Source: a virus
Taxonomy: Duplodnaviria; Caudoviricetes
DNA length: 58,537 nucleotides
IMG/VR virus record: IMGVR_UViG_3300030116_006124
Location: 1 to 58,537 of that record
Reading direction: 5' to 3' (one strand)
The notes under the pieces are model-generated. The model was given only the letters and a program-made list of their open reading frames with translations, did no database searches and was not told the origin of the DNA. The position numbers and the translations under genes are program-made. Below, in pieces: positions 11,979 to 33,940 of this stretch (its first letter is position 1; every line of letters starts with the position of its first letter).

Positions 11979-14900
11979 GTGTCAGACCTATATCCAACAT
12001 TATCGTTGGGGGAGAAAACCCCCGTGCCTAATGACCTTGACGTAAACTTCAACGTCGCACCACTGCAATCGTTCAGTCAGTGGTCATCCTCTTCAGGGTC
12101 AAATATCAATGATCCATTGCTCAGTGCTCAAGGCTATGCCGATTACCAGAGAGGGCATTTCTTTCGTACAGGCGAACTTGACGACGAAGTAGAATCATCG
12201 ATTACACAAGGCTTAGTAGGTAGTTTACTTAATAATCAATTAGTAACTCCCGAACAAGTTGAGTCAGAGGATTTCTTAGATACACTCAACCCACAAGCTG
12301 ATGCACAGACTCAAGCCAACTTAGTCCGTATGGCGTATGGTGAGAGAGCGGGGTCTACTTATCTTAGTAACATACAAAGTGAAAGCGGGAATCAAGAGGA
12401 GCTTGATAAACAGCTTAATAGTGCGAAGACCTTACTGGTTGATTCAGGAGTGTTGCCCTTTGCCAGAGTTAAAGACGATAAAGGTGTAGATAAAATTATT
12501 GGTGGTGCTGGTATAACTGACAGGGGTAAATCACTGGATGATGCAGTTCGATTAGGGGCATTGAACTATTCAGATGCCTATCGTGTCATGTCTGGTTTAA
12601 AAAAGGGAATGTCCGATGCCAGTGTTTTTGAAAACATAAGAGAGGCACAGCTATTAACTGAACTTAATGCAGTATTAGGATCAGATGAAGATGCTGAAAT
12701 ACCACAGAATGCGCTCGATGTAATGCGTGGACTTATCAAATCAAAAGATGAGGATGCTACTTTAGATCAGGAGCAAGATATCTTAGCCGTTGTCGGTGAT
12801 ATACGTAAAGGTTTGTCATCAGCGTATGCACGTAAGAATGGATTCGGTGAAGGAGCTGCTCTTGAAAGATACTCTGATAAAGAAATCAGAGATGCTGTTG
12901 AGTTATTAGCAGCGAACGAGGTAAATGAAAAAGGAGAGTTTAAATTTTACGACGAAGATGATTCCAAGAACATCCGTGTATTAGGAAGTGGTCATGTAAT
13001 GGCGCACCCGAACCTTATGCAACAAAGAGAAAGGTTCGAGAAGGCAATCAAGAATGATGATAGATTGTCAGAGGATCAAATTACATCGCTCAGAAATCAG
13101 CGTAAATTGTACAGGCAGTTAACTTACGAACAGTACGATAAGTTTTTAGCCGATACAGCAGCGACAAGTGATAATTGGATAGCTGCAAAACAAGCGGGAA
13201 GAGCTAGCGGAGCCTCCGATGTAGACATATTGGATACCTTCTTAGCTGATAAACGTAATTACAGTTCTATAAAGAACAGATTAGGAGATATAGCAGCAAC
13301 GATACCTGATGCCGTTGTAGGGTTGTTTGCTTCATTAGGTGCTGTAGTTTTCAGAAGTGAGGGAGCTACAAAATATTTGGTTGATAACCAAATGGATAGG
13401 CAGCGTAGACGAGAAGTTGCTGCGATTTTCGGTGATGAGTTTGGTTGGGGTATGGATCTTTCTAACGTGGTTGCACCAATGGTTGTTGATGTCTCTGCGA
13501 CAGCTTTGTTGTCTGCAGGAACTTTAGGTGCTGGTGGTGTTCTATATGCTGGAACTAAAGCTGGAGCTAAACAAACAGCTAAAGCACTTGTTAAAAATTT
13601 AACTAAGGCTGCTACAGGTAGGCAGTTCGGTGATACAGCAAAAGACATTGCATTGAAGGCTGCAGCTAGAAAAGAAGGAAAGGATTCGGCTAAAACAGTA
13701 ACTGACAAAGGAGTACAAGAAGCAATCAAGGCTTATAACAAAGCGATAGCTAATAAAACTTTCCGTAAAGCAGCACCATTCCCGCCTTTATTTTTAACGG
13801 CTGCAAATAGGAGTGCGGGTAATACATACGCTACTGTGTATGCAGCACAGCCAGATTCCTTAACACACGAAGAAAAGCACGATGCTGCTTTGGGTTACGC
13901 ATTGATGGGAGGTACTGTGACAGGTCTAATTACGTCTGCGTTTATGGGTGTAGGTTTAGGTGGTTTCGAACAAGCGTTTCTTAGAGGCATGACTTATAAA
14001 GGTATGTCAGCAGGTATGTCAAAAATACTTAATTTAGATATAAGAGGTTTAACATCAACAAAAGTAAAAGAAGCTATAAAAGTTAGCGTTGAAAAGCAAC
14101 TCAAAGAAGCAGCTAAAAAATCTAGATTCATAAAAGAACTTGGAGTCCCCGCAGCAAGCGAAGCTGCTGAAGAAGGTCTTGATGAGTTTATACAAACATT
14201 CATTATGGATGCCGCCCTCAACGAAAACACGCCAATGATAGATCGTTTGATGGTCGGATTACATGCTGCTTCTTTAGGGGGTGTTATGGGTGGAGGTGTT
14301 GTAGGCGTTCAACGTATGTTTGATAAAGGTACAGGAGTTCGTTACGAAAGATTCCAACAACAAACTATAGATAAGATTATCTCTGATCTAGAAGGATCTT
14401 CTCCTCTAACACAACAGTTTTTAAGAGATAATAGAGAACAGATAACTAGACAATTACGGACTGCATCAAGATCTAGAGACCCTATCACCACGACTGTTTC
14501 TGACAGTGATGTTGATATGATCACCGATAGATATAACGAGTATCTTAGTGGTCGAATAACACAAAAAGAATTTGAAGAGAGTACTAATTCTACTCTTAAA
14601 GAAGCTGAAATTTTTGTAGATGGAGTTGAAGTTTCTCAAGCCAAAGAACTTCTTTCTCAAGAGATAACAGAAAAGCTCAAACAACAAAGAATAACTAAAG
14701 AAGACTCTGATTTTATTATTCAAGAAGGACAACAGAGAGAAACACAAGTAGGAGAACTTTCTCAAGAAACTGAAGAAAAACTTGAAAGACAATTAGAAGA
14801 AGGGAGACAAAGGGCTATAGAGCAAGAAGAGCAGCTTGTAAAAACTTTTGACACTGTGTGGGGGACTAGAGAAAAATCTATAGAGTTAGGGGAAGGACTT

Positions 14901-17900
14901 AGTGCAGATGAGCACTATCAAAGGTATCTAGACGCAAGAGCTGACGCAGAACAAGTTGCTGATTTCTGGGGTATGGAGTCTCGTGTAGATTATAATGAAA
15001 GTAATAAAGGATTAGGTGCTTACAGAGCAGAGCAAACTGAAGAAGGAATGCGTCTTGTTATAAACCCTTGGGGTCTTGCTAGGCTTACGATGGGTCTAAA
15101 TAAAGCTAACGCACAACACGTCGCTCGATTTGAAGCAGCTCATGAGGTTATACATCACGCAGCATGGAGGAACTTAGCGAAAGCTGAGATAGATGTCATA
15201 TTTTCTGCACTATCTGAAAATGAAGTAAACGATATTATAGACACATACTATAACACAGATGAGAAAAGACAGGCGGCTCGCAGCCAACTTAGCCCTGACT
15301 CTTTAAAAGTACAGCGACGTAATATGCAGCACATAATAGTTGATGAGTACTTACGCATGAAGGCTCAAAGAATTACTAAAGGCTATACCACAGAAGAAGA
15401 AATAAATTTCTACAAAAGTAACCCAAATTTCGTTCGGGTATTATTACGCTACTTGCGTTCTTATGTAAATCGTTTTAACGCTCTAAGAGAATTGAACGCT
15501 GATAACCCTGTCATATCTGCAGCTATGCACAGACTGACAGGCGAGATGACAAGACTTAAAGGTGGTTATCAGATTAATACTGCAGTCAAGTTTGATATTG
15601 ATGATCCAGAAAACTCTGTTAATAAACTTATAACATATCTCGATGATAAACCATTCATTGATCGTGATCCAAATAGGAAGATCGATATGGGTGTGCGCCA
15701 AACGCAAGCAGGTTCTTTAGATGAAAAGTATCTTAAACTGGCAGCAAACCCAGAAGCGAACCAACAAGAGTTACAGAAGATGGTGGATGACGCTGCTAAA
15801 AAAGCAGGATATAATATTGGCCCTTTGCTTCATGGAACGCCCTCTGAGTTTAACGCTTTCTCTTACAATAAAATAGGGTTTGGTACAGGTTTTCAATATG
15901 GCACAGGTTTTTATTTTACAACCTCACCAACACAAGCACGAGCATACGCCCGTGATAATGGAAAAGTTCTTTCCGCATATTTAAAAGTAGATAACCCACG
16001 AGCATTTAATTCCGCTCCGCTCTCATCAGAGGAACTCATACCTGTTATTGAAAGAGCTGCTGAACTAGAGCTTCAAGATAATTTAAGAGAAGACTCTCAA
16101 GCGGTTATTGACGATACTTTTATATCTAATTTTGGAGGCATTGAAGCTGCTGCAGAAATGTTAGCTAATGAAGATACAATAGCCGAACAACTCGGAGCCA
16201 TGAAAGGTAGTGGTGTTGCTCCTGAATATTACCATAAAGCCCTCAAACAAATAACTGGTATAGATGCTTTAACTGGTGTTGATAAGGAGCCTAGCAGTGT
16301 TGAATTCACCATAAAAGAAGGCAAGAGCGGAAGAAAATCCGTAAAGAATGTTGAGGTTGAAGGTACAAATGTCACAGTTGTACTTACTCCTGAACAAATA
16401 AAATTATCTGATCCTGTAACTAAAGATGATCGGGGTAATATTATTCCAATATCTGAAAGATTTTACAGAACCTCTCAGGACATAAGGTATACTCAAGCAG
16501 GTTCTTTAGAAGGTTTTTATGAAAATATAGAAGAGGTTCCTCCGATCACATCACAGGTAAACGAGAAAGAAGTTGATTCTCTCGTAAATGTAAAAACTGC
16601 TAGTGATCTTAACGATCCTGCAGAGCAAGAGATATTTGAGAAGGCGGTAGATAACATAAACAAGGATAGGTCAGGCATACTCGCTGTAGCTGCCAATCGT
16701 TTATTTTCAAAGGATGAATCAAAGAAGATAAATCAAGCAACATATAATGAAATCCGTAACAGAGTATTTCCTTATAAGAATGTAGATCAAGTTCCTAAAG
16801 CTCCTAATGCAGAAGATATAAAAAATGTGTGGCCTAAGAAAAAGGATGGTACTCCTTCTTCTAAAGTAATAGCAGGAGGAAGTACTAAGTTCGGGGCTAT
16901 CTCATATAACGATGCTTTTAAGGAACTCCAAAATCAAAAGGTTTCAGTTAGATTAGATATCCCTACATTTAATAAATCTATAAGGGAAAAAGATGCTCCT
17001 GTATATGCCGTCACTATAATGGGGCCAAATATGCAAGGTGCTTTAGCTTATACAGGTTATGCGAAAATTAAATTAGATGGTATAGAAAGCAAAGTTGGTC
17101 ATGCAGCCAAAATAGCTACAGGGACTAACAAATTTGTTATGGCTTCTACGGAAGGTGAACTGATGGAGTTCAAACCTAAAGACTTAAATGCTTTCCGTAA
17201 AGATTGGGCTAGTGGTAAAGTTGGCCCTAAAAAAACAGGTGAAGATCGTTGGGTCGAGGTTGCTGTTAATCCTTTAAGAAGCTCAGAGTTTGTGGATGTA
17301 ACGAACCCATTAGACCCTGTACCTGTGATAAATGGAAGCACTGCTATTCATGTAGGTAATAGGGTTTTTGTACAACAACCTGTATGGGGTAAAAGACCAG
17401 ATTATGGTGTAGAAGGGGATGTCCGATTCACACAAGCAGGTGGTCTTGAAAGCGGTACGTTCGAAACAACTGAAGGTGGTTTGGGTTATGGGGGTTATGC
17501 ACCTTTGTTTGATTTACCTTTCTTTGAGACTGGTAAGTATAGGAAAAAGAAAGATGGCTTATTTGGAAGTTTAGTGAATAAGTTTAGAGGAGAATTAGAC
17601 CCAAGAGTAAAGAGACTTATAGAGCAAAGGAGACAGATACAAGATGCTGTTGAAACTGATGTTGTTAACTTTAAGAATCAACTAGATAAAATAATCAAAG
17701 AAGACTTTGATGGTAAAGCACCTGTTGCTTTGATACAAGCATTAGTAGGTAGCCGTGAAAACATATCTCCCGAAACAGAACAAGCATATCTTGATTTAAT
17801 AAAAGGAGTTAAATCCGAATCGAAGATTGCTGAGATAAGAGCTGAGTATGTTGAAGGACGTAGAAAAGAATTTAGAGATAGGAAGAATAAAGCTATAAGC

Positions 17901-20624
17901 GAGTTAGCTAAAATACAAAAGGTTCCTGAAAAAGACTCTGATAAAACAAGACTAGTTAGGCATCTGCTTGGCGGGAAGATAGATGGTAAAAAAGTATTAG
18001 GGCTAAGAGCCTTAACTGATGAGCTATCAACAGTTATACGTGGCATTGTAGGGGAGGATAGTGAAATGGGTATTGCTATTGATGACAACTTAGAACTGTA
18101 TCTACACAGAGAGTATAAACTTTTTTCAGATAAAGAATACAGAGATAATATAAGAACAGACTCTAGATATGACACTGTACGGAAAAATGCAGGTGACTTT
18201 CTATATAAACAATATAAGACATTCAATAAAGATTGGCGTAACGAAGTCAAAAAGTTTCCTACGGTTGCTGAATTTAAAGCGAAGCTCGTAAATGATTATC
18301 TCGATTTACATATTAAAAGTGATAGATCGGCTTCTAATTTATTTAATAACCTTAAAGACCATAAAAAAAGTATTGTAAGTTTAAACATCGGAGCTTTGAA
18401 GAGACGTAAAAATCCTCCACAAGAGTTGCGAGAATTGTTAGGTCAAGTTGCCGATGAGACTGGATATAATGAACTACTAGAAACTTTCTCACATCTTGGC
18501 TTAGTTGCTTCTCAAATAAACTTCATTAGTAACCTCAAGAAGTTTGGTATGGATACCAAAAAAACAGGAGGGCAGCCATTTATTATAGAGGCCGAACTAG
18601 ACGAAGTGCAGGTTGAGGGAAAGGAAGCGACATACAAACCTGCACCTGAAGGTTATAGTATTTTAAAAGTAGCTGCTGGAGCAGATACTAGTATTATTAA
18701 TACAGCACCATTTGCAGACGGGAAAACTTATTATGTTCTTACAGAAATGGAACAAGCTGTTTCTGCTATACTTGACCCTGCAGCGAAAGTAAATCAGTCT
18801 GAAGCCGACAAAGCAAACCAGTTTGTTTCAGAAGTGGGGGCTAAGTTAACAGGTCTGTCTTTAGGAGCTAAGACATTAGGATCTATTGGATTCTATGTTC
18901 GAAACATACTCTCAAACATTGTTTTCTTTGGGCCATCTCAAGGGTTCTGGAGGTTTGGTAAGATGGGTCAATCATTACGGAAAGAGTTTATTCGTAAGAA
19001 ATACTTATCAATGGAGCCAGAAGAAGTGAGTGCATTTCATAGAACCATGATCGGATTAGGGGTTATCGGCAATGAAATAGAAGCGGGACTCTTACAGGAC
19101 TTTTTAACAAACCCTCGAAGCGAAGCACAGCTTCAGAAAGAACTGTTGGATAATCTTGATGGTCTTGAAAGTGAAACAAGTGGAGATAAGAAGGCATTAG
19201 ATATTAGTGTCATATCAGAGAAAGTAGGTAAATCGAGAGCAGGTAGGTTTGCTCGTAGGTTGAGAGAGCTATCACAAACTGTAGATAGTTTTTATAAGAT
19301 CGCTTACTTCATGAATGAGTTAGAGGTTTTACAACAAGCGAGAGCTAAACACGGTACTTCAACAGCAGAGAACCAGATTAATTATGGAGCCTTGAGCGAT
19401 GAAGAACTTATGCAGATGGCTGCTGATAAAGTAAAGAAAACTGCACAAAGTTATGATCAAGCCCCACCATTTGTTCAGAAGCTAAGAGACTCATGGTTCG
19501 GGGTAATGTTTGCTCCGTTCATCCGATTCAAACTGGAGGTTCCAAGGATCATGTTAAACACAGTCATTTTAGCGAGGAAAGAAATGGCAGATACTAATCC
19601 AGTTATTAGAAAACGAGGTAAGGATAGAATGATTGGATTCACTAGCGTGTTAGTAGGATTCTCTGCAATAACTCCAGTCATTGTGAACGCTCTCGCTGGT
19701 ATAGGAGATGAAGAGGAAGAAGCTCTTAGAGATTCGATGCCTGAGTATTTAAGAAGTAATTCATTCTTCTTCTTCAATACAGGAGGTAAATTATACTCAG
19801 CAGATTTAACTTATCTTAATCCGTACGCCATGATGGTCGATCCATTCCTACGTTCCTTTGATGAGTTAATGAGAGGTAGTCCATCAGAAGCGGGAGCCGC
19901 TTTCTTTAAAGCGATGATTGCTGATCAGTATCTCGACCAACAAATACTGGCAGGGGCTGTAACCAGTGCATTAAATAATAGAGATCCAGAGAATGGTAGA
20001 CCTATTACAGAGGTTAACGACACTGCGTGGGAAGCCTTCTCTAAAAAGTTCCAGTTTATTTTTTCAGAGGCTTATGCCCCAAGAACCCTTGAGAAAGTAT
20101 ACAGAGATGGTTTCGTTAAATTGATGGAGGGAGATCCAGATGTGTCTGATTTCATCATGACTCCTTTAGGGGCATTAGCTAAAGAGTTCTTACCCCTTAG
20201 ACCATATGAAATAGTTCCAGAGCAGCAGCTTGATCGATTCCTGTCAGAAAGAGCAGGTGAATATCGTAGAGCAGCAGCACTTAAAAACCGCATGTATACA
20301 GATGACTCGATATCAGAAGATGCTGTAAAAGGTATGGCTGATACGGAGATTGAAAGACGTAGGCGTATTAATGAACATTTAATAAAAGCATTTAGAGGAT
20401 TCAAGAAGTTAGGTCTTACCGACGAACAGATATATGCTCAAGCCTTAGAGCGTGGGTATGGTAAACGTCGAGTCGCCTTACTCTTAAATGGTTTGATGGA
20501 GCGTCCCGTTCTACAAACTCCATTTATTCGTAACATGGCAGTCAAAGGGGATACTCATATTCAAAGGTTGCGTACCTTCAATGATCAACTCGAAACTTAC
20601 GGACGTTACATTCCTGTAGAGTAG
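11979..20624 (+). CDS. Giant polyvalent internal virion protein (HExxH zincin-like, ART-PolyVal-like and C-terminal LPD-like regions)
   Basis: 2881 aa; AAHEVIHH; LHGT...F...GTGFYFT...ARAYA...VLSAYLKVDNP typical of ART-PolyVal; Gly-rich hydrophobic segments; three R[YFQ]TQAG linkers. Confidence 0.7.
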   Translation: MSDLYPTLSLGEKTPVPNDLDVNFNVAPLQSFSQWSSSSGSNINDPLLSAQGYADYQRGHFFRTGELDDEVESSITQGLVGSLLNNQLVTPEQVESEDFLDTLNPQADAQTQANLVRMAYGERAGSTYLSNIQSESGNQEELDKQLNSAKTLLVDSGVLPFARVKDDKGVDKIIGGAGITDRGKSLDDAVRLGALNYSDAYRVMSGLKKGMSDASVFENIREAQLLTELNAVLGSDEDAEIPQNALDVMRGLIKSKDEDATLDQEQDILAVVGDIRKGLSSAYARKNGFGEGAALERYSDKEIRDAVELLAANEVNEKGEFKFYDEDDSKNIRVLGSGHVMAHPNLMQQRERFEKAIKNDDRLSEDQITSLRNQRKLYRQLTYEQYDKFLADTAATSDNWIAAKQAGRASGASDVDILDTFLADKRNYSSIKNRLGDIAATIPDAVVGLFASLGAVVFRSEGATKYLVDNQMDRQRRREVAAIFGDEFGWGMDLSNVVAPMVVDVSATALLSAGTLGAGGVLYAGTKAGAKQTAKALVKNLTKAATGRQFGDTAKDIALKAAARKEGKDSAKTVTDKGVQEAIKAYNKAIANKTFRKAAPFPPLFLTAANRSAGNTYATVYAAQPDSLTHEEKHDAALGYALMGGTVTGLITSAFMGVGLGGFEQAFLRGMTYKGMSAGMSKILNLDIRGLTSTKVKEAIKVSVEKQLKEAAKKSRFIKELGVPAASEAAEEGLDEFIQTFIMDAALNENTPMIDRLMVGLHAASLGGVMGGGVVGVQRMFDKGTGVRYERFQQQTIDKIISDLEGSSPLTQQFLRDNREQITRQLRTASRSRDPITTTVSDSDVDMITDRYNEYLSGRITQKEFEESTNSTLKEAEIFVDGVEVSQAKELLSQEITEKLKQQRITKEDSDFIIQEGQQRETQVGELSQETEEKLERQLEEGRQRAIEQEEQLVKTFDTVWGTREKSIELGEGLSADEHYQRYLDARADAEQVADFWGMESRVDYNESNKGLGAYRAEQTEEGMRLVINPWGLARLTMGLNKANAQHVARFEAAHEVIHHAAWRNLAKAEIDVIFSALSENEVNDIIDTYYNTDEKRQAARSQLSPDSLKVQRRNMQHIIVDEYLRMKAQRITKGYTTEEEINFYKSNPNFVRVLLRYLRSYVNRFNALRELNADNPVISAAMHRLTGEMTRLKGGYQINTAVKFDIDDPENSVNKLITYLDDKPFIDRDPNRKIDMGVRQTQAGSLDEKYLKLAANPEANQQELQKMVDDAAKKAGYNIGPLLHGTPSEFNAFSYNKIGFGTGFQYGTGFYFTTSPTQARAYARDNGKVLSAYLKVDNPRAFNSAPLSSEELIPVIERAAELELQDNLREDSQAVIDDTFISNFGGIEAAAEMLANEDTIAEQLGAMKGSGVAPEYYHKALKQITGIDALTGVDKEPSSVEFTIKEGKSGRKSVKNVEVEGTNVTVVLTPEQIKLSDPVTKDDRGNIIPISERFYRTSQDIRYTQAGSLEGFYENIEEVPPITSQVNEKEVDSLVNVKTASDLNDPAEQEIFEKAVDNINKDRSGILAVAANRLFSKDESKKINQATYNEIRNRVFPYKNVDQVPKAPNAEDIKNVWPKKKDGTPSSKVIAGGSTKFGAISYNDAFKELQNQKVSVRLDIPTFNKSIREKDAPVYAVTIMGPNMQGALAYTGYAKIKLDGIESKVGHAAKIATGTNKFVMASTEGELMEFKPKDLNAFRKDWASGKVGPKKTGEDRWVEVAVNPLRSSEFVDVTNPLDPVPVINGSTAIHVGNRVFVQQPVWGKRPDYGVEGDVRFTQAGGLESGTFETTEGGLGYGGYAPLFDLPFFETGKYRKKKDGLFGSLVNKFRGELDPRVKRLIEQRRQIQDAVETDVVNFKNQLDKIIKEDFDGKAPVALIQALVGSRENISPETEQAYLDLIKGVKSESKIAEIRAEYVEGRRKEFRDRKNKAISELAKIQKVPEKDSDKTRLVRHLLGGKIDGKKVLGLRALTDELSTVIRGIVGEDSEMGIAIDDNLELYLHREYKLFSDKEYRDNIRTDSRYDTVRKNAGDFLYKQYKTFNKDWRNEVKKFPTVAEFKAKLVNDYLDLHIKSDRSASNLFNNLKDHKKSIVSLNIGALKRRKNPPQELRELLGQVADETGYNELLETFSHLGLVASQINFISNLKKFGMDTKKTGGQPFIIEAELDEVQVEGKEATYKPAPEGYSILKVAAGADTSIINTAPFADGKTYYVLTEMEQAVSAILDPAAKVNQSEADKANQFVSEVGAKLTGLSLGAKTLGSIGFYVRNILSNIVFFGPSQGFWRFGKMGQSLRKEFIRKKYLSMEPEEVSAFHRTMIGLGVIGNEIEAGLLQDFLTNPRSEAQLQKELLDNLDGLESETSGDKKALDISVISEKVGKSRAGRFARRLRELSQTVDSFYKIAYFMNELEVLQQARAKHGTSTAENQINYGALSDEELMQMAADKVKKTAQSYDQAPPFVQKLRDSWFGVMFAPFIRFKLEVPRIMLNTVILARKEMADTNPVIRKRGKDRMIGFTSVLVGFSAITPVIVNALAGIGDEEEEALRDSMPEYLRSNSFFFFNTGGKLYSADLTYLNPYAMMVDPFLRSFDELMRGSPSEAGAAFFKAMIADQYLDQQILAGAVTSALNNRDPENGRPITEVNDTAWEAFSKKFQFIFSEAYAPRTLEKVYRDGFVKLMEGDPDVSDFIMTPLGALAKEFLPLRPYEIVPEQQLDRFLSERAGEYRRAAALKNRMYTDDSISEDAVKGMADTEIERRRRINEHLIKAFRGFKKLGLTDEQIYAQALERGYGKRRVALLLNGLMERPVLQTPFIRNMAVKGDTHIQRLRTFNDQLETYGRYIPVE

Positions 20625-27170: not shown

Positions 27171-27225
27171 TGTATTTTATTTAGTTTTTTAGTTAATGGT
27201 TTAGTTAACAACTGAGTTGTTAAGA

Positions 27226-28173
27226 TTAGAGTCCACAGACAGCAAGCCTACTAGCTGTGCGTTCTGCTTGGTTGTACACATCCTCGATTGCAGTAGCAGC
27301 GAGCTTTCTTGTCGCTGATCCTGTCTTACCTAAGTGATCACGTTGGATGCTGCCAACCTCTTGAAGATCCCTGACAATATCATTGATGACATCGAACTCG
27401 AACCAGTTCAATTCCTTCAACTCTGCAGCAGCTTCTTTCAGCTCATCGAATGTCTTCTGATGGAGACGCTCACCCTTAGTCACTTTCTTAATAGCTTCTT
27501 TAAGTTTCTTCATAGCAGGTTCCAATACTTTGGAATGGTTCCTTGCCATGACATCGATGCGTGTCTTCTCAGATTGAGCAATCACTTTGTTAGCTACCTC
27601 CTCAGTCATACCTTCGAAGATAGTACCCTTCTTGATTGCCATCGGTGCAGCCGACCATGATACAGCGATCTTGAATTCTCCTAAGAACTCCTCGCCATTG
27701 TGAGGTACGTTGACTTCATGGATATTATCGCCCAAGCCTTCGATTGATTCAGCACGTATGGTATCCCACTCTCTCAAAGCATCCACTCGTAGATCATCGA
27801 GTTGTCTTGACATATCATCAATCATTGCTTGTATCTCAGCAACCTTGTCAGTGGATACAATACGTACCCCACGCACATCGCTTGGATGTGTGCCTATCTT
27901 ATAGTTCATCTGAGCCTGTTGCACGACACTAAGCATCTTGCCAAGAGAGTTGTTACGAGTCTCAAGAACTGTAGCTGAAGCTCTCACTCTCCCCTTCTTT
28001 GCATTGGTATCCTTAACCACTTCTTTAGTCTTCCCTTTAAGGGTGGCACTAAAGCCTGTCGGTTTACTACCTGCCCAAGTAACTTGGACAGTATTATTTA
28101 ACACTGTAAGGATCTCACTTTTAGCAAGACCTGCTTTGATTTCTTTATCGTTGTATTGGTTTATTGTATTCAT
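27226..28173 (-). CDS. DUF3150-like protein of the AAA/vWA triad
   Basis: 315 aa, helical, directly upstream of AAA and vWA genes; assignment largely by synteny. Confidence 0.5.
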   Translation of the reverse strand: MNTINQYNDKEIKAGLAKSEILTVLNNTVQVTWAGSKPTGFSATLKGKTKEVVKDTNAKKGRVRASATVLETRNNSLGKMLSVVQQAQMNYKIGTHPSDVRGVRIVSTDKVAEIQAMIDDMSRQLDDLRVDALREWDTIRAESIEGLGDNIHEVNVPHNGEEFLGEFKIAVSWSAAPMAIKKGTIFEGMTEEVANKVIAQSEKTRIDVMARNHSKVLEPAMKKLKEAIKKVTKGERLHQKTFDELKEAAAELKELNWFEFDVINDIVRDLQEVGSIQRDHLGKTGSATRKLAATAIEDVYNQAERTASRLAVCGL

Positions 28174-28202
28174 TATTTAGTTTATTTAGTTTGTTATTAT
28201 AC

Positions 28203-28230
28203 ATTATAATAGATTATTATAATAATGCAA
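28203..28230 (-). promoter_or_regulatory. Strong sigma70-like promoter for the DUF3150-like/AAA/vWA operon
   Basis: Minus strand TTGCAT-N16-TATAAT, 23 bp from a palindrome copy. Confidence 0.6.
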
Positions 28231-28249
28231 GAATTATTTTTTATGTTAA

Positions 28250-28774
28250 TCAGTTAACAACTGAGTTGTTAAAGAACTCTGCTGTTGCTTGGTGTACTAA
28301 GTCCTCCATGATTTCCCCATCACCCTCCACTTCTGCATCAGTTATCTCGACGTTATCGAGATTAAAATCATCATCAAAGTCAGAGGGGCTATAACCTTCC
28401 ACGATTTCTTTAGCTTCCTCCTCTGACTCAGCTTCAACCAATACGGATTCTTCAACCACTACAGAGACCCTGTAATACTTCTTGATTGGTTCGAACTGAT
28501 GTACAGTATATTCACTGTCCCCTACCCTCACCACTCTCCAAAGGAATGATGACCAGTAAGGTGATCTTGGCGATTCGTAGGAATCAAATACATGAAACCC
28601 ATTTGATGGTGGCACGAATCCCCCTACCATTTCTACGAAAGAACGAGGAATTTTTTCAAGCTCCTCCTCTGGTACTGTATTACTCCAAGAGCCTCCACAC
28701 TTTTCGAATTTGTATTCTGCTATTAATTTAAATGTATCTTCATTGAAGATGTCTGATGTTACTTCTACTTTCAT
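28250..28774 (-). CDS. Early-region cassette gene, acidic hypothetical
   Basis: 174 aa ending FFNNSVVN, encoded by the palindrome. Confidence 0.65.
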   Translation of the reverse strand: MKVEVTSDIFNEDTFKLIAEYKFEKCGGSWSNTVPEEELEKIPRSFVEMVGGFVPPSNGFHVFDSYESPRSPYWSSFLWRVVRVGDSEYTVHQFEPIKKYYRVSVVVEESVLVEAESEEEAKEIVEGYSPSDFDDDFNLDNVEITDAEVEGDGEIMEDLVHQATAEFFNNSVVN

Positions 28775-28824
28775 TTTTTATTTTATTAGTTTGTTATTTT
28801 ATATTCAGCTTAACAACTCAGTTG

Positions 28825-29070
28825 TTAAACTCTGATCTTCTTTACTCCTGTTATTTCGTTCTCGTGTGATGAGTCTGGATGACTGGCGATCAGACTGTAG
28901 AAACAACTCGTTGCTTCTTTGTATGAATCACAGCTCCATCCGTCCACGTAGACAGCTTCAACTGTCTCGCCCTTCTCATCTATAGTATCGAGTCTCCAAT
29001 CCACATCGAAGACTCCGTATCCATCACCCTGTCTGAGGGTAATCCAATGGTGTAGTTTATTTTTTGGCAT
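28825..29070 (-). CDS. Early-region cassette gene, hypothetical
   Basis: 81 aa; TAA stop lies inside palindrome 28810-28828. Confidence 0.65.
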   Translation of the reverse strand: MPKNKLHHWITLRQGDGYGVFDVDWRLDTIDEKGETVEAVYVDGWSCDSYKEATSCFYSLIASHPDSSHENEITGVKKIRV

Positions 29071-29107
29071 AGGTATTATTTGTTTTGTTTGTTTTTAATT
29101 TAACAAC

Positions 29108-29317
29108 TCAGTTGTTAAGTTCTTTTAGGCTCATTAGCCACTTGTTTCCTACAGCGAGATCATTCAAAAGAGTTAGAGTTTTCTCTAAGTCCTCTCTTTC
29201 TTCATTTACTCCTGTGTGATCCGCTCCATCTAGCTCATCTACTCTCCACTTGATCACCTCATAGGCATAATCTAAGTAATCAAGGCGAACTTCTTTTACT
29301 ATTTCTTGTATCTTCAT
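29108..29317 (-). CDS. Early-region cassette gene, hypothetical
   Basis: 69 aa; ends LNN-TGA inside palindrome 29100-29118. Confidence 0.65.
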   Translation of the reverse strand: MKIQEIVKEVRLDYLDYAYEVIKWRVDELDGADHTGVNEEREDLEKTLTLLNDLAVGNKWLMSLKELNN

Positions 29318-29341
29318 TTATCTATTTTGTTTATTTGCAAG

Positions 29342-29662
29342 TTACTTAACAACTGAGTTGTTAAAATACTCCTCGATATCTATTGCTATGTATCCCTCAT
29401 CCTTTGCGTTGGATGGGTTTACCAATGGCTCATGATCCCATGAGACCACGATCTCTTTTGAGTGAACGCTGTTATTCCTCTCATGTAAATAAGCTGTCAA
29501 GAATGCGATCGCATCCGCATACCGCTGTGACTCTGTGGAGATGAGGTATTGCTCACCGCCCTTGAACTTCCAATGAGCTTGCCCATCAGAAAACTTTCCA
29601 CTACCAGAGTGTGCTCCGTAGTTCTCCATATATTGTGTTGTTATGACGTAGTAGTATTTCAT
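29342..29662 (-). CDS. Early-region cassette gene, hypothetical
   Basis: 106 aa, TQYMENYGAH...WKFKGG motif; ends FNNSVVK through the palindrome. Confidence 0.7.
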   Translation of the reverse strand: MKYYYVITTQYMENYGAHSGSGKFSDGQAHWKFKGGEQYLISTESQRYADAIAFLTAYLHERNNSVHSKEIVVSWDHEPLVNPSNAKDEGYIAIDIEEYFNNSVVK

Positions 29663-29864
29663 TTATCTATTTTGTTTATAAGTTAATTAAGGTTGCATGC
29701 ACCATGCACCATTTAACAACTCAGTTGTTAACCCTGCCTTCCCCTCTACCGCAGTGATCCACTCCGCATTGCGAAATGACTGCGAGTCTTACAGCAAGAT
29801 TAACAACTCAGTTGTTAATGGTACATGGCACATGGTTCACCTAACAATTCAACCAGTGTTGAAA

Positions 29865-30227
29865 TTAGTTTGCGTATTCACCAGTCCATACAGGTGCTTT
29901 TATCATATAGCCCCGATCATATGTCAGATGTATCGGTGACGAGTGATAGGGTAATTCTAGATCGATGCATCGCTTCTCGAAATTAGCAACGGCATCATCC
30001 AGATTAGTAAACTCCATTTGGTTTACGCTGTGCAAGAACTTCTGATAGAAGTGATCTATGAATTCAATCTCTACTGTATACTTTGATGTGCCGTTTTCTC
30101 TTAGCACTACTCTGCTCATTGTACAGTTGTGATCATTCTCTCCGTACTTTATCTTTTCAATTAATGATCTAGCTAGAACTGGATACTCGATCCAGTCGAT
30201 TGCTTTCTCTACTGTTCTTATTCTCAT
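29865..30227 (-). CDS. Early-region cassette gene, hypothetical
   Basis: 120 aa with AAGAAAGGAATACC leader. Confidence 0.65.
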   Translation of the reverse strand: MRIRTVEKAIDWIEYPVLARSLIEKIKYGENDHNCTMSRVVLRENGTSKYTVEIEFIDHFYQKFLHSVNQMEFTNLDDAVANFEKRCIDLELPYHSSPIHLTYDRGYMIKAPVWTGEYAN

Positions 30228-30277
30228 GGTGGTATTCCTTTCTTGGTTTGTATGTTAATAAGTTAACAACTCAGTTG

Positions 30278-30445
30278 TTAAAACATCCGATTCCTTGGTA
30301 AGAAATTAGTATCGGATACTGCTCGAAGTTTATATGCTAATTCCTTTTCATCCAATTCACATAAGATCTCGATAGCCTGAAATAGTTTAGCTATCTTTTC
30401 AATACGTGCCTTGCGTTCTTCTTTTGTTTCTTTTTTCTTTCTCAT
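30278..30445 (-). CDS. Early-region cassette gene (55 aa, not in ORF track)
   Basis: MRKKKETKEERKARIEK...RNRMF*, stop inside palindrome 30263-30281. Confidence 0.55.
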   Translation of the reverse strand: MRKKKETKEERKARIEKIAKLFQAIEILCELDEKELAYKLRAVSDTNFLPRNRMF

Positions 30446-30478
30446 GATTTGTATGTTAATAAGTTAACAACTCAGTTG

Positions 30479-30676
30479 TTAATCTGTTTCTGTTAATCCT
30501 CCTATCACCTCAAGGTTCGCTAAGTGAGATTCAATAATCCCATACCTGTCAGCGTTTGGGCGTACCTCATCCCAATACTCGCACTTGCATATGCTATCGT
30601 AGTAGTACCCACAATTCTCATTATGCTTCAACCCCATCGGGCGATGATGTTTTAATTTATCAGTTGTTAAGTTCAC
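30479..30676 (-). CDS. Early-region cassette gene, Cys/His-containing hypothetical
   Basis: 65 aa, GTG start after the shared leader; stop inside palindrome. Confidence 0.55.
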   Translation of the reverse strand: MNLTTDKLKHHRPMGLKHNENCGYYYDSICKCEYWDEVRPNADRYGIIESHLANLEVIGGLTETD

Positions 30677-30723
30677 TGGTATTCCTTTCTTGTTTGTATG
30701 TTAATAAGTTAACAACTCAGTTG

Positions 30724-31017
30724 TTAATCTGCTCCGTTCTCATTGTTAATTGAGAAGACTGTTCTGAGATCCTCGTTAATACGAAGACACCAGTTTTCTT
30801 GGTGAGCTACATCAGCCCCCGAAAACTCTACTCTTAGCGATTCTTTTGAGAGGGTTGCTAAACCATAATTGAAATCTATGCCGTTTACCCTACCATCCCC
30901 ATCCAGATGGATGTCGGTAATTTCTTCCCGTGATATTGCCCACGAATTAAATGCCATCCCATTCGAATTTAGTTTTTCAAATAGGGTTATTACTTTTTGC
31001 ATTGTTTCTATTGTCAT
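30724..31017 (-). CDS. Early-region cassette gene, hypothetical
   Basis: 97 aa; stop inside palindrome 30709-30727. Confidence 0.65.
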   Translation of the reverse strand: MTIETMQKVITLFEKLNSNGMAFNSWAISREEITDIHLDGDGRVNGIDFNYGLATLSKESLRVEFSGADVAHQENWCLRINEDLRTVFSINNENGAD

Positions 31018-31096
31018 TTGTTTACTTGGTTTGTTTGTTATTAATTTAACAACTCAGTTGTTAACAACTCAGTTGTTAAGGATTAAAATTTTAGAC

Positions 31097-31276
31097 CTAT
31101 GCCTCCACCCCCGTCCATCTGATAATCTGATCAAACGATTCATACCCTAAACCTGCATATAGAATGCTTTCCAATGTCTCGAAAGTATATCCGTTTATAC
31201 TCGTAACAATTTGTAATGTCTCTTCACTTATCCCTAATTCTCTTAGAGTATCCCATGCTTTTTTCTTATCTCTCAT
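31097..31276 (-). CDS. Early-region cassette gene (59 aa, not in ORF track)
   Basis: MRDKKKAWDTLRELGISEETLQIVTSINGY...ILYAGLGYESFDQI..., between two tandem palindromes. Confidence 0.6.
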   Translation of the reverse strand: MRDKKKAWDTLRELGISEETLQIVTSINGYTFETLESILYAGLGYESFDQIIRWTGVEA

Positions 31277-31453
31277 ATTACTATTTTATGTTTATTATTT
31301 TTGTATGTTATTAATTTAACAACTCAGTTGTTAACAACTCAGTTGTTAAGGTAATCAATTAAGAATTGAAGGATGCACCATTGCCAAGGGTTAGTCGACA
31401 ATGGTGCAATGTTCAATACTCACTTGATAAGTGATAAGTTAACAACTTAGTTG

Positions 31454-31993
31454 TTAACTCTTATCTAATTCTGAAACAATCTCATTTATAAGATTAACAG
31501 CTTTGGCTTGTTCCTCAGTAGATGCCGCCTTGAATAACTTAGCAATCTGCTCAGCAGTGACAGGCTTCTTTTCCTTATCTGATTTTTTCTTGTTAACAAG
31601 AACCGCTTTAGTTGTAGCTTCAGCTATTTTAATATATCCAACAGATACTTTGTTTAGAGTCTTAGTGATTCCTGCATCACTTCTGGTTTTTCTAAGATAG
31701 TGCCCTCTCTCATTTAGAATTTTAGATAGATTCTGTTGAGTAGTTTTTCCGTTCTTTACCAGTGGAGCGCAAGTATTCTGTACTGTTTTATAGATTACAG
31801 AACTAGGAATATTAGCTTTTTCCATTATCTCAATTTTCTCAACTAAGATTTCCTTAAGGGTTTCCGTTGCTTTGAAGATTGCTTCAATAAATGAATCTCT
31901 TGCAGTTGTTAATTCAGTTGTAACATTTTCAAGAACTGCTTTCTGATCTGCAGTTAATTCGATAGCGTTTTTCTTATTTGCTTTTTTAGCCAT
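31454..31993 (-). CDS. First early gene; Lys-rich putative DNA-binding protein
   Basis: 179 aa, QQNLSKIL..RG...RKTRSDAG basic motif; stop inside palindrome 31439-31457. Confidence 0.6.
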   Translation of the reverse strand: MAKKANKKNAIELTADQKAVLENVTTELTTARDSFIEAIFKATETLKEILVEKIEIMEKANIPSSVIYKTVQNTCAPLVKNGKTTQQNLSKILNERGHYLRKTRSDAGITKTLNKVSVGYIKIAEATTKAVLVNKKKSDKEKKPVTAEQIAKLFKAASTEEQAKAVNLINEIVSELDKS

Positions 31994-32089
31994 TTTATTT
32001 TCTTTCTATTTTTTAATGTTTTATTGTTAGGTTTATCCATTGTTTTTCAATGGTTAGAATCTTAACAACTGAATTGTTAAAACTCTAAA

Positions 32090-32128
32090 CATTGCACTAT
32101 TGGAGGTATTCTTTCCAATAGTGCAATG
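32090..32128 (-). promoter_or_regulatory. 15-bp perfect stem-loop (processing site or terminator)
   Basis: CATTGCACTATTGGA / TCCAATAGTGCAATG with a 9-nt loop. Confidence 0.6.
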
Positions 32129-32134
32129 GATAAT

Positions 32135-32725
32135 GCCAAGCCGATAACCTCATAATTTATCGACTGTGATACCTTAGTATATTTCAATCCGTTGAGACCA
32201 GTTGAAATTTTAAATTGCTTGGATAGCCATAATTTAAAACCAGTATAAAATAATCATATAAACTAAAGAGCTTTGAAATGTGATTAAGGTATACCCGAAA
32301 AAATCGGTCTGATCTGCGTGAATACTTAGGGGTGAAAAGGTTGCCAAACCATATTCACTTTTTTTGACCCCTGCTAAATGTTCGATCCTACTAAAGGCAC
32401 TTCTCAGGGTCTGCTATTTTAAACTGGTTACAGCGTGCAATTTTTTAACGGCTAGATATTACTCCTAAATCATTTTGTATTGACTACCATTCTTTAAGCT
32501 ATGCCTCAGAGTAAACGGATTGGACGTTTATCCTTTACGGTTTTTAAACTGCTCTCCACAGATCCCGCTCTGTAATTTTCTTAAAACTGTCAATAAGGCT
32601 TTTACTGCTAAAATACTTTATCGCTACCAGTCGAGCTTAGTTGGTTACCCCTAAGCGGGCTATACTGTCAAAAATCTATCCTCTCACTGTCACTGAGCTG
32701 AGGTAATTTTTCCCTCACTTTCTTA
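32135..32725 (-). ncRNA. Candidate large structured ncRNA
   Basis: No ORF of 60 aa or more; several long-range complementary pairs (see findings); weak promoter TTGCAC at 32750-32755 upstream and a 15-bp hairpin downstream. Confidence 0.55.
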
Positions 32726-33062
32726 ACCAATACTTTAAAAAAAGAAATAGTGCAACCTAATATTTCATTATTTTTCATAAATGATCATAACAATTTAGTT
32801 GTTAGTTGTAAGTTGTTAATGGTTAATGAGTTATGTAACATTAATAATTGTTCATAAATAGCCATAATGATCTGAATTTTGCACTAGCAAAACAACAAAA
32901 AATCCTAACAACTTTCCAAGAATTTTTGAAAAGTGTTATATCGTCGTAAATGAAATAGGGTATATTACCCCCATATCAGCTTGCAACGTCATATAAGGCA
33001 ATTATGAAGCATTATGAGGATATTTTAGTGAGTATAGATAATTATGGTAATTATAAAGGGAA

Positions 33063-33078
33063 TGTTCTACGTGGAACA
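33063..33078. promoter_or_regulatory. parS-like site
   Basis: TGTTCTACGTGGAACA, one mismatch from the palindromic parS TGTTCCACGTGGAACA. Confidence 0.6.
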
Positions 33079-33328
33079 TTTTAACAACTGAGTTGTTAAG
33101 GGGTAATTGATAATAGGCAATGGCTAATTGTTCAGTTGATCAGATCATTGCTAATGTCAAATTTTCAACAAAGTCTAGCAATTCACAGCCGATCATTATC
33201 AGTAAATATGGAAAGTTAATCATTGTTGATTATCAATAGATCACAGCCAATCGACAGCCACGCCACCCCCCGCCCCCGACTTTTTTTTGTGTGCCGCCCC
33301 ATGTATATATGTGTGTACAAGAAAAAAT

Positions 33329-33357
33329 TTGACTAAACATCTACCACTCGATATAAA
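33329..33357 (+). promoter_or_regulatory. Sigma70-like promoter (leaderless transcript for 33364)
   Basis: TTGACT-N17-TATAAA, 6 nt before the ATG. Confidence 0.55.
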
Positions 33358-33363
33358 GGGGGT

Positions 33364-33591
33364 ATGCCAAACGTAAAAAAGCAAGAATATTACAGGAAAA
33401 ATAGAGAAAAGCGGCTCAAGTATCAGCGAGATTACTACGAGCTAAATAAAGAGCGAATCAAGAAAAATCGAGCCGATAGAATGGACAAGGAGCCCGATAG
33501 AATGGACAAGGAGCGGTCTTACAACAAAGAATACTACAAGAAGAATAAGGAGCGGATCATGGCTCGTCGTAAGGCTAAAGAGCGGAAATGA
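33364..33591 (+). CDS. Small basic protein with YY.KN.E repeats
   Basis: EYYRKNREK / DYYELNKER / EYYKKNKER; internal 21-bp tandem duplication 33473-33514. Confidence 0.6.
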   Translation: MPNVKKQEYYRKNREKRLKYQRDYYELNKERIKKNRADRMDKEPDRMDKERSYNKEYYKKNKERIMARRKAKERK

Positions 33592-33716
33592 AAGTCGCTC
33601 ACGATTCACCGTTCATTATCCATGATTCGGGGTTCAGTGTGCGGCTACGTGAGCGGGGTTACACATCATCAAAGTATATAATAATGAATGCTAAATATAC
33701 GTGTAGAATCAAGTTG

Positions 33717-33887
33717 AAAACTTTTTTAAAAAGCTGTATGTAGTTTCATGCAATTAGAATTATTGTTATGAAAAATTATGAAAAAAAGATACAGTTTCAT
33801 GCAATTTTTATTTTATACTATAAAAATAGGTATTTGAAGAAGAATGAAAAAATGCATGAAACTGCATACAGAATATAAAAAAGTTTT
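33717..33887. repeat. AT-rich region with long imperfect inverted repeat plus a direct copy (candidate replication origin)
   Basis: 33717-33752 is complementary to 33853-33887; AGTTTCATGCAATT at 33742 and 33793. Confidence 0.5.
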
Positions 33888-33940
33888 TATATTAGGTATT
33901 TTTAATTAATCATTATAAAGTCAATTTTTTTCTCATCAAT

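What the first reader, a model, noticed from the sequence alone, without database searches (positions are those of the whole stretch)
32135..32725. Candidate ~600-nt ornate, pseudoknotted ncRNA at the head of the early region
Seen: an ORF-free segment with long-range complementary pairs 32160-32166/32628-32634, 32185-32193/32514-32522, 32238-32252/32415-32429 (14 of 15), 32169-32176/32285-32292 and 32478-32484/32589-32595. There are also local hairpins (GCTTAG..CTAAGC enclosing GG-GUAA-CC on the minus strand, GGGG..CCCC, CCGA..TCGG). Several helices cross, implying pseudoknots or alternative folds. Established: phages carry large ornate RNAs such as ROOL and GOLLD in this size range. Inference: this would be the first RNA made on the early strand, lies within a palindrome-bounded interval, and may be a new class.
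Basis: partly seen in the sequence, partly recalled or inferred. Interest (0 to 1): 0.8.

Follow-up and report, generated by a model that had tools for sequence, protein, structure and literature searches.

The report
Modular structured RNA in marine phage
The gene-free stretch at the head of this uncultured marine phage's small-gene cluster encodes a string of folded RNA modules on the minus strand, whose core is a roughly 160-base four-way junction locked by a pseudoknot that matches no catalogued RNA family.

Summary
Four of the five are not conserved, and the whole 591 nt folds no better than shuffles (z about 0).

There is real conserved structure, but with different helices and on the minus strand. 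A consensus over four phage lineages (window 32081-32790) has 150 pairs, 98.5% of cells paired, and 29 pairs with compensatory changes against 12.8+-2.3 in shuffles (0/500). Neighbouring control regions give 1-8.

The core, 32172-32330, is a four-way junction plus a 7-bp pseudoknot with three covarying pairs. Twenty variant events read from contigs of three other public runs all keep pairing. G.U pairs favour the minus strand 5:0.

The array is modular. A 220-nt block is missing in two lineages. A fifth lineage carries only three modules, split by intercistronic palindromes.

Rfam gives no match. Only about five to seven related marine phage lineages carry it. No RNA data exist, so transcription and function are inferred. 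The likely reading is a new structured ncRNA family made with the presumed early genes.

The parts
32787..32805 (-). Degenerate copy of the repeated 19-nt palindrome (CTAACAACTAAATTGTTAT on the minus strand). It is preceded at 32806-32830 by direct AACAAC half-sites. Candidate start or operator signal of the RNA cassette.
   Evidence: 2 mismatches to the consensus. Invariant in 4 of 4 lineages in A8. for the sequence context.
32724..32787 (-). 5' AU-rich stems (helices 1-3 of the consensus). These are weak and have no compensatory changes.
   Evidence: helices 1-3, 91.7-100% of cells paired, 0 pairs with changes on both sides.
32699..32717 (-). Hairpin UGAGG...CCUCA.
   Evidence: helix 4: 5 pairs, 2 with compensatory changes.
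32635..32656 (-). Hairpin C (GCUUAG..CUAAGC). On the minus strand its loop is GUAA or GUGA (GNRA type) in 4 lineages.
   Evidence: helix 9: 3 of 5 pairs compensatory. L007 has a different self-complementary stem, GCTAGC..GCTAGC, read from A2. The 17-mer CTATACTGTCAAAAATC beside it is near-invariant in 5 lineages.
32478..32595 (-). Its core, 32497-32592, is nearly invariant.
   Evidence: Present in window, L053 and L007 and absent in L009 and L008. The closing helix has 2 compensatory pairs. MFE z is 0.00. The core lies on several separate contigs with different flanks.
32366..32411 (-). M domain: outer 6-bp helix (32406-32411 with 32366-32371) and inner 5-bp helix rich in G.U.
   Evidence: (5 lineages), helices 12 and 13. 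There are 2 compensatory pairs. The inner helix pairs only on the minus strand (G.U to A-U changes).
32359..32365 (-). Invariant A7 linker (T7 on the plus strand; T6 in L007).
32332..32358 (-). Two-part hairpin T. Read on the plus strand, it is followed by the T7 run and looks like an intrinsic terminator.
   Evidence: helices 14 and 15: 3 compensatory pairs. Three cells are G.U on the minus strand and one on the plus strand.
32172..32330 (-). A domain: a stacked closing stem (32309-32330 with 32172-32201) opens into a four-way junction with three arms. The arms are 32295-32307, 32243-32294 and 32206-32241.
   Evidence: helices 16-24. The 7-bp helix 32309-32315/32195-32201 covaries at 6 of 7 pairs. 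The single-sequence MFE gives almost the same fold.
32273..32279 (-). 5' strand of the pseudoknot (AUUUCAA, an internal loop of the long arm).
   Evidence: 7 bp with 32181-32187, and 3 covarying pairs, one in each of L053, L009 and L008; 0 of 200 column shuffles give a run with 3 or more covarying pairs.
32181..32187 (-). 3' strand of the pseudoknot (UUGAAAU, an internal loop of the closing stem).
   Evidence: Contig variants in runs X8, X10 and X14 change 32182 with 32278 and 32186 with 32274 together.
32139..32165 (-). Hairpin 25.
   Evidence: helix 25: 12 pairs, 2 compensatory. X8 adds 32143/32161, C-G to A-U.
32089..32129 (-). Terminal 16-bp hairpin with the invariant loop core GAAUACC. 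A U-rich tract follows on the minus strand. Probable 3' boundary of the cassette.
   Evidence: (I15), helix 26 (4 compensatory pairs). X8 adds 32099/32119. A second copy of the stem motif lies at 31399-31410.
32062..32080 (.). A copy of the 19-nt palindrome (one position differs from the TTAACAACTSAGTTGTTAA consensus) between the RNA cassette and the 179-aa gene (31454-31993, minus strand).

Best explanation
Window 32089-32787 is a cassette of non-coding, structured RNA modules read on the minus strand, the strand of the array of small, presumably early genes to its left.

Order of the modules, 5' to 3' on the minus strand:
- a weak AU-rich 5' part and a small hairpin
- hairpin C, with a GNRA-type loop
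- an optional, nearly invariant B domain
- the M domain, an A7 linker and hairpin T
- the A domain (32172-32330), a four-way junction locked by a 7-bp pseudoknot
- two terminal hairpins

Shown: the helices are maintained by compensatory substitutions. The pairing works better on the minus strand. The modules occur in different combinations in related phages.

Inferred:
- The cassette is transcribed like a gene of the small-gene array, because it sits between two copies of the intercistronic palindrome that precedes each of those genes.
- Its modules act as RNA in their own right: a compact fold that binds a protein or small ligand, or catalyses a reaction. The alternative would be a leader tied to one gene.
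- My preferred mechanism is a stable early transcript whose A domain works in trans as an RNA-protein scaffold or decoy during host takeover. That last step is a guess.
For: Conserved structure:
- Four-lineage minus-strand consensus: 150 pairs in 26 helices, 98.5% of 598 cells paired, 29 pairs changed on both sides against 12.8+-2.3 in shuffles (0/500). Slid-partner controls give 0-2.
- A domain plus terminal hairpins alone: 83 pairs, 18 compensatory against 6.8+-1.9 (0/500).
- Same pipeline on five neighbouring control regions with all four sequences, both strands: 1-8 compensatory pairs, consensus energy -4.7 to -28.4, covariation term at most 1.62. The A region gives 18-19, -72.0 (minus) or -60.1 (plus), and 7.31 or 5.06.
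- MFE of 32085-32335, minus strand: z -4.90 (0/200).
- Pseudoknot: 7 bp with 3 covarying pairs, and 0/200 column shuffles match it.

Out-of-sample check: 20 variant events at modelled pairs in contigs of runs X8, X10 and X14 all keep pairing, 11 of them with the partner changed too.

Strand:
- Of 68 pairs predicted from both strands, 5 cells are G.U on the minus strand and 0 on the plus strand.
- The inner M helix exists only on the minus strand.
- Hairpin C loops are GUAA or GUGA on the minus strand.

Not coding:
- No alternative genetic code opens a frame.
- Six-frame tblastn hits only the same four relatives, in all six frames.
- Small ORFs are not conserved.

Modularity.

Cassette context: 18 palindrome sites, each about 20-80 nt upstream of a small gene, flank the RNA slot.
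Against: - No transcript evidence of any kind. No listed run is on record as RNA.
- Only four full lineages and one partial one. The compensatory counts therefore rest on few independent events. Part of the out-of-sample variants repeat substitutions already seen in L008 and L009.
- One search listed 40 differences and withheld 98, so broken pairs could be hidden.
- The whole 591 nt (z about 0) and the B core (z 0.00) show no thermodynamic signal.
- Helices linking the modules are invariant or weak (helices 5, 8 and 11), so 'one RNA' against 'several RNAs' stays open.
- Hairpin T with its invariant T7 run looks like a plus-strand intrinsic terminator. One L007 cell is G.U only on the plus strand.
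- The loop orientation of the 32062 palindrome is the minority one for leftward genes.
- The trans-acting function is conjecture. No partner protein emerged.
Confidence: 0.68

Rival explanations
1. Cis-acting leader. The A domain with the two hairpins after it is a riboswitch-like or antitermination-type element. It would control the 179-aa gene and the palindrome-punctuated small-gene operon downstream.
For: In all four full lineages the A domain lies directly upstream of the 179-aa gene, in the order fold, hairpin 25, 16-bp hairpin with a U-rich tail, palindrome, gene. A complex junction-plus-pseudoknot fold upstream of a gene is the usual riboswitch layout (general knowledge). Contigs in X8, X10 and X14 all keep 32050-32308 contiguous.
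Against: L055 has the 179-aa homologue (74% identity) without any of the RNA. In L007 the M, B and C modules lie downstream of the distant 179-like gene and between other genes. No conserved alternative pairing links the closing stem to the terminal hairpin. The U tract after that hairpin is poor in 3 of 4 lineages. Several further modules upstream are not needed for a switch.
Confidence: 0.2
2. One reading: one obligatory RNA of about 600-700 nt, ornate in the manner of ROOL or GOLLD, in which all modules fold together.
For: In four lineages the 700 nt are uninterrupted by palindromes. The predicted closing helices 32695-32698/32082-32085 and 32658-32660/32135-32137 are possible. Optional domains closed by a helix, like B, are common in large RNAs (general knowledge).
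Against: Those long-range closers show no covariation. L007 keeps M and B+C apart, separated by four palindromes, and lacks A. There is no Rfam match to any large RNA family and no tRNA genes nearby.
Confidence: 0.2
3. A DNA-level element: a replication origin, a packaging site or clustered protein-binding sites. The hairpins would form in single-stranded DNA and nothing would act as RNA.
For: The region lies at the divergent switch between the leftward and rightward gene arms, beside a tract of about 25-30% G+C (32700-33100) and at the minimum of cumulative GC skew. The flanking palindrome has a conserved sequence, as protein sites do.
Against: A four-way junction with a covarying pseudoknot, and G.U-tolerant substitutions on one strand only, are typical of RNA. 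They are not typical of duplex protein sites. The AT-rich tract itself (32830-33084) shows only 2 compensatory pairs.
Confidence: 0.05
4. Plus-strand reading. A short rightward transcript would start near the 32062 palindrome and end at hairpin T plus the T7 run (32332-32365), antisense to the A domain. Alternatively, the 24-aa plus-strand micro-ORF (32501-32575) in the B core is the functional part.
For: Hairpin T covaries and is followed by an invariant T7 run (T6 in L007). The loop of the 32062 palindrome reads TGA on the plus strand, as at 33081. The near-invariant B core spans the micro-ORF closely. An X10 contig lacks 2 + 1 bases inside it, which would restore the frame.
Against: G.U asymmetry is 5:0 for the minus strand in the A domain. 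The consensus energy is better on the minus strand (-72.0 against -60.1; -20.9 against -14.1). MFE z is -1.99 on minus and -0.75 on plus. The three micro-ORF sites that vary among window, L053 and L007 are all non-synonymous.
Confidence: 0.07

Closest known systems
ROOL and GOLLD (large ornate RNAs, often phage-borne, that form RNA-only homo-oligomers; PMC12286853, search listing and start of abstract seen)
   Same: A non-coding stretch of several hundred bases in a phage, with many covarying helices and a pseudoknot, and no known function.
   Different: No match to any Rfam model, including at E up to 10 on small sub-regions. That Rfam holds these two families is recalled, not checked. There are no tRNA genes in the window. 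The modules here occur separately in relatives. Oligomerisation is untested.
phi29 pRNA (recalled: a phage RNA made from an early promoter at the genome end, which forms a ring on the packaging motor)
   Same: A phage-encoded, non-coding, folded RNA placed at the head of an early transcription unit.
   Different: No Rfam match. The size and architecture differ. No link to packaging genes was seen.
Riboswitch aptamers with multi-way junctions locked by loop contacts (SAM-I, cobalamin and lysine types; recalled)
   Same: A 160-200 nt fold with a closing stem, a four-way junction and a long-range pseudoknot, lying upstream of a gene.
   Different: No model match. No recognisable expression platform. 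The downstream gene occurs without the RNA in L055. The ligand is unknown.
Candidate structured RNAs of viruses and phages (csRNAs; PMC10690425; abstract and methods section 4.2 read)
   Same: The same kind of object: an intergenic IMG/VR region with covariation.
   Different: Whether this region is among their 10,006 candidates could not be checked, because the lists are in supplements, which are closed. Their workflow dropped BLAST matches above 200 bits. The pairwise matches here score 324-2333 bits, so it may have been missed.
N4 virion-RNA-polymerase hairpin promoters (PMC4496689, passages read). This concerns the flanking palindrome only.
   Same: A short, sequence-conserved inverted repeat with a 3-nt loop, repeated in front of early genes.
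   Different: There are 18 copies rather than three, and the stem is 8 bp. No virion RNA polymerase was identified: the 2881-aa ORF has no PHROG hit and no DxDGD motif (Pfam not run on this ORF). Copies overlap the stop codons of upstream genes, and both loop orientations occur.

Membership tests
Structured non-coding RNA (generic) | Secondary structure maintained by compensatory substitutions beyond controls | tested here: met
   (0/500 shuffles; slid controls 0-2). (neighbouring regions give 1-8 against 18-19). (20 of 20 out-of-sample events keep pairing).
Structured non-coding RNA (generic) | Not protein-coding | tested here: met
Structured non-coding RNA (generic) | Is transcribed | not testable with these tools
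   No run on record as RNA holds the stretch. Only DNA contigs were laid.
ROOL / GOLLD / OLE / HEARO and every other Rfam 15 family | Match to the family covariance model at its gathering score | tested here: not met
   0 matches in the whole window. At E up to 10 there are only miRNA, snoRNA, CRISPR-repeat and Ysr35 chance hits far below gathering.
ROOL / GOLLD | Frequent neighbourhood of tRNA genes in phages or prophages (recalled feature) | tested here: not met
   ARAGORN finds 0 tRNA or tmRNA genes in 58,537 nt.
tmRNA | tRNA-like domain plus tag ORF | tested here: not met
   ARAGORN finds 0 genes. No Rfam hit.
Intrinsic terminator (hairpin T read on the plus strand) | Stable stem-loop directly followed by a U tract | tested here: inconclusive
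   A covarying two-part stem followed by an invariant T7 or T6 run. The consensus scan did not list it. Three cells pair only on the minus strand.
Riboswitch | Conserved aptamer upstream of a regulated gene, with an expression platform and a ligand | tested here: inconclusive
   The fold lies upstream of the 179-aa gene in 4 of 4 full lineages. L055 has the gene without the fold. No alternative pairing was found. The ligand cannot be tested.
N4-type hairpin promoter (flanking palindrome) | Conserved DNA hairpin with a 3-nt loop, plus a virion RNA polymerase that reads it | tested here: inconclusive
   The hairpin geometry is present at 18 sites. No polymerase was recognised.

The most novel reading that the evidence does not exclude
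The A domain (32172-32330, minus strand) founds a new class of complex-folded phage RNA. It would be a self-contained four-way-junction and pseudoknot fold with its own biochemical activity: a ribozyme, a ligand sensor or a self-assembling particle. It would be carried with other RNA modules (M, B, C) as shuffleable 'RNA genes' in the early gene array of a clade of uncultured marine phages.
Probability: 0.3. Interest if true: 0.85.

Novelty: new variant of a known kind. Interest (0 to 1): 0.62.

Why it matters
Few phage RNAs reach this level of fold complexity: a multi-way junction plus a covarying pseudoknot. RNAs that do have usually turned out to be ribozymes, riboswitches or self-assembling particles.

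This one has three further points of interest:
- It sits at the presumed start of infection-stage transcription in an abundant but uncultured marine phage group.
- It has no catalogued relatives.
- It appears as one of several RNA modules that are swapped between genomes like genes.

The core is short enough (about 160-250 nt) for direct in vitro folding, cleavage, binding and cryo-EM tests. The question of its function can therefore be tested without culturing the host.

Tried and rejected
- Alternative genetic codes (table 4, TAG=Q, TAA=Q) open no frame.
- Decayed gene: six-frame tblastn with X at stops hits only the same DNA relatives, in all frames. Small ORFs are not conserved.
- Phage database: blastn of the region and tblastn of the 740-aa neighbour give no match. 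The DNA polymerase reaches only 26% identity to cultured phages.
- Wider homologue hunts, patterns:
  - Two IMG/VR patterns find 3 contigs each.
  - One metagenome pattern finds 9 stretches: the same four lineages plus 5 unrelated.
  - The B-core 22-mer finds 2 IMG/VR contigs.
  - Two patterns in 185,579 prokaryote genomes give 0 and 0.
- Wider homologue hunts, covariance models:
  - R1 (M domain) finds only its 5 training lineages in 53 sources, and 1 of 48 whole viral records, which is L007's.
  - R2 (A domain) finds only the two positive controls in 50 records, plus one hit at E 0.85.
  - L037's record was not held.
- Expression: no RNA holder is listed. The one read-laying run used DNA contigs only.
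- Partner protein: genes shared by two RNA-bearing genomes and missing from L055's record (81% complete) gave only weak MazG, DUF7694 and DpnD/PcfM hits. The 179-aa protein has no Pfam or PHROG hit.
- Virion polymerase idea: the 2881-aa ORF has no PHROG hit and no DxDGD motif (Pfam not run on this ORF).
- The different 500 nt in L055's slot has no relative among the held loci.
- The supplements of PMC10690425, which may list this region, could not be read.

Full report
**Setting.** The window is a complete 58,537-nt IMG/VR virus record from marine samples.
- It has no close cultured relative. The region and the neighbouring 740-aa protein find nothing in the phage database, and the DNA polymerase reaches 26% identity at best.
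- The finding lies in a 1.95-kb stretch without long ORFs (31994-33940). This stretch separates a leftward array of small genes from a rightward arm that begins with an HNH gene and the 740-aa gene.
- That the leftward array is 'early' is presumed, not shown.

**Check of the observation.**
- The segment is ORF-free under table 11 and under three other codes.
- The excess over 200 dinucleotide shuffles is modest. Inverted repeats of 7 bp or more number 19 against 12.4+-3.3 (8/200). The longest stem with one mismatch is 15 against 11.3+-1.2 (4/200). The 8-bp and 9-bp counts are unremarkable (46/200 and 20/200).
- The whole 591 nt folds no better than shuffles on either strand (z -0.04 and -0.06).
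- Rfam has no match at gathering score in the whole window. At E up to 10 it gives only chance hits. There are no tRNA or tmRNA genes.

**Relatives.**
- The 740-aa protein retrieves 52 loci and the 179-aa protein retrieves 3.
- Only three other contigs share the region by blastn: those of L053, L009 and L008. L007 shares pieces of it, and L055 shares only the flanks.
- Pattern scans of IMG/VR, of metagenomes and of 185,579 prokaryote genomes add no further lineage.
They are 83.2% paired against 83.2+-0.9 for shuffled partners.
- Only 32478-32484/32589-32595 has compensatory changes (2 pairs). Three helices decay without compensation. The invariant 9-bp pair has arms that occur without each other in some lineages.

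**What is there instead.** RNAalifold on the minus strand of 32081-32335 gives 83 pairs in 11 helices.
- 98.8% of 330 cells are paired.
- 18 pairs changed on both sides, against 6.8+-1.9 in shuffles (0/500). Partners slid by 1-3 columns give 0-1.
- One 7-bp helix (32309-32315 with 32195-32201) covaries at 6 of 7 positions.

Over 32081-32790 the consensus has 150 pairs in 26 helices. 98.5% of cells are paired, and 29 pairs are compensatory against 12.8+-2.3 (0/500; slid controls 0-2).

The same pipeline was run on five neighbouring regions of equal or greater divergence, on both strands.
- The controls give 1-8 compensatory pairs, energies of -4.7 to -28.4 and covariation terms up to 1.62.
- The A region gives 18-19 pairs, -72.0 (minus) or -60.1 (plus), and 7.31 or 5.06.
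- A sixth region had only two sequences.
- The single-sequence MFE of 32085-32335 on the minus strand has z -4.90 (0/200) and nearly the same fold. Without the terminal hairpin, z is -1.99 on minus and -0.75 on plus.

**Pseudoknot.** A search among the 228 unpaired, ungapped columns looked for runs of 5 or more pairs compatible in all four lineages, with at least one covarying pair.
- It found exactly one: minus 32279-32273 (AUUUCAA) with 32187-32181 (UUGAAAU). It is 7 bp, with one compensatory change in each of L053, L009 and L008.
- None of 200 column shuffles gave a run with three covarying pairs. 21 of 200 gave any qualifying run.
- It joins an internal loop of the long arm to an internal loop of the closing stem. 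It therefore crosses four helices.

**Out-of-sample check.** Contigs of three other public runs (X8, X10, X14; DNA) cover the A domain.
- I took the differences that call listed at 32089-32299. Of these, 20 fall on modelled pairs, and all 20 keep a standard pair on the minus strand.
- In 11 of the 20 the partner changed as well. These include the pseudoknot pairs 32182/32278 and 32186/32274, and a new pair 32099/32119 in the terminal hairpin.
- Caveats: 98 further differences were not shown. Several of the substitutions are the ones already seen in L008 or L009.

**Strand.**
- Among 68 pairs predicted from both strands, 5 cells are G.U on the minus strand (A.C on plus) and none the other way.
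- The inner M helix (G.U to A-U changes) exists only on the minus strand.
- Two single changes in X8 are wobble pairs only on the minus strand.
- Hairpin C has GUAA or GUGA loops on the minus strand.
- Against this, one L007 cell is G.U only on the plus strand. Hairpin T followed by an invariant T7 run looks like a plus-strand terminator.

**Modularity.**
- The 220 nt at 32438-32657 (B) are replaced by about 40 nt in L009 and L008.
- The B core, 32497-32592, is nearly invariant. It lies on several separate contigs with unrelated flanks. Its MFE z is 0.00.
- L007 has hairpin C with B, then four copies of its own palindrome, then M with hairpin T. It has no A domain. All of this lies downstream of a distant 179-like gene.
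- L055 has the 179-aa homologue but an unrelated 500 nt in the slot.
- Covariance models of M and of A find nothing in the other 48 related viral records.
- The helices that would tie the modules together show no covariation.
- I therefore read the region as an array of autonomous RNA modules rather than one obligatory 600-nt molecule. The single-molecule reading is not excluded.

**Context.**
- The palindrome TTAACAACTSAGTTGTTAA occurs at 18 sites, all between 27205 and 33099, against 0.08 expected.
- The copies lie about 20-80 nt upstream of the small genes. Several overlap the preceding stop codon.
- The RNA slot is bounded by a degenerate copy at 32787 and a copy at 32062, as a gene would be.
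- This layout is the basis for inferring leftward transcription.
- What the palindrome does is open. The N4 hairpin-promoter analogy (PMC4496689, passages read) lacks a recognisable virion polymerase.

**Function.** Nothing here shows what the RNA does.
- No partner protein emerged.
- The fold complexity and the cassette-like distribution favour an RNA that acts in its own right. A leader tied to the 179-aa gene is the main rival.

**Novelty.**
- There is no Rfam match.
- Literature searches returned general surveys, one of them a 10,006-candidate screen of IMG/VR (PMC10690425; abstract and methods 4.2 read).
- That screen's lists are in closed supplements, so prior listing cannot be excluded.

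Noticed in passing
window 27205-33099 (18 sites, e.g. 30263, 30464, 30709, 31046/31061, 31316/31331, 31439, 32062, 33081): The 19-nt palindrome TTAACAACTSAGTTGTTAA (8-bp stem, 3-nt loop) recurs 18 times, against 0.08 expected. It occurs only in the small-gene array and at the head of the rightward arm. Copies lie 20-80 nt upstream of start codons. At four sites the TAA inside the palindrome is the stop codon of the preceding gene. A CTTATTAACATACAAAC-like motif often follows. The L007 lineage uses TTAACAAGAGCTTGTTAA instead.
   Followed up: partly
window 31365-31410 and 32089-32129: Two copies of a long hairpin built on ATTGCACYATTG. Each lies just upstream of palindrome copies. It may be a cassette boundary or a terminator.
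   Followed up: partly
window 32497-32592: A near-invariant 96-nt core is found on several separate contigs with unrelated flanks in other marine runs. It closely spans a 24-aa plus-strand micro-ORF (32501-32575). The three sites that vary among window, L053 and L007 are all non-synonymous.
   Followed up: partly
window 32806-32830: On the minus strand, three direct half-sites (TTAACAAC, TTACAAC, TAACAAC) precede the degenerate palindrome at the head of the leftward unit. This looks like a clustered binding site.
   Followed up: no
window 11979-20624: A 2881-aa ORF with no PHROG hit (Pfam not run on it) and no DxDGD motif. It is conserved in relatives at 64-88% over about 1,300 aa.
   Followed up: partly
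window 33473-33514; 33717-33755 with 33850-33888: An exact 21-nt tandem duplication and a 39-nt inverted repeat (79% complementary) lie in the rightward leader, before the HNH gene.
   Followed up: no
L055 2143-2646: A close relative carries an unrelated 500 nt, with one extra palindrome copy, in the slot where the window has the RNA array. No relative of this filler was found among the held loci.
   Followed up: partly
window 32195-32260 (run X10, contig record 3): In one estuary contig, 66 nt of the A domain (the 3' strand of the covarying 7-bp helix and the third arm) are replaced by 65 other letters. The sequence of the replacement was not visible.
   Followed up: no
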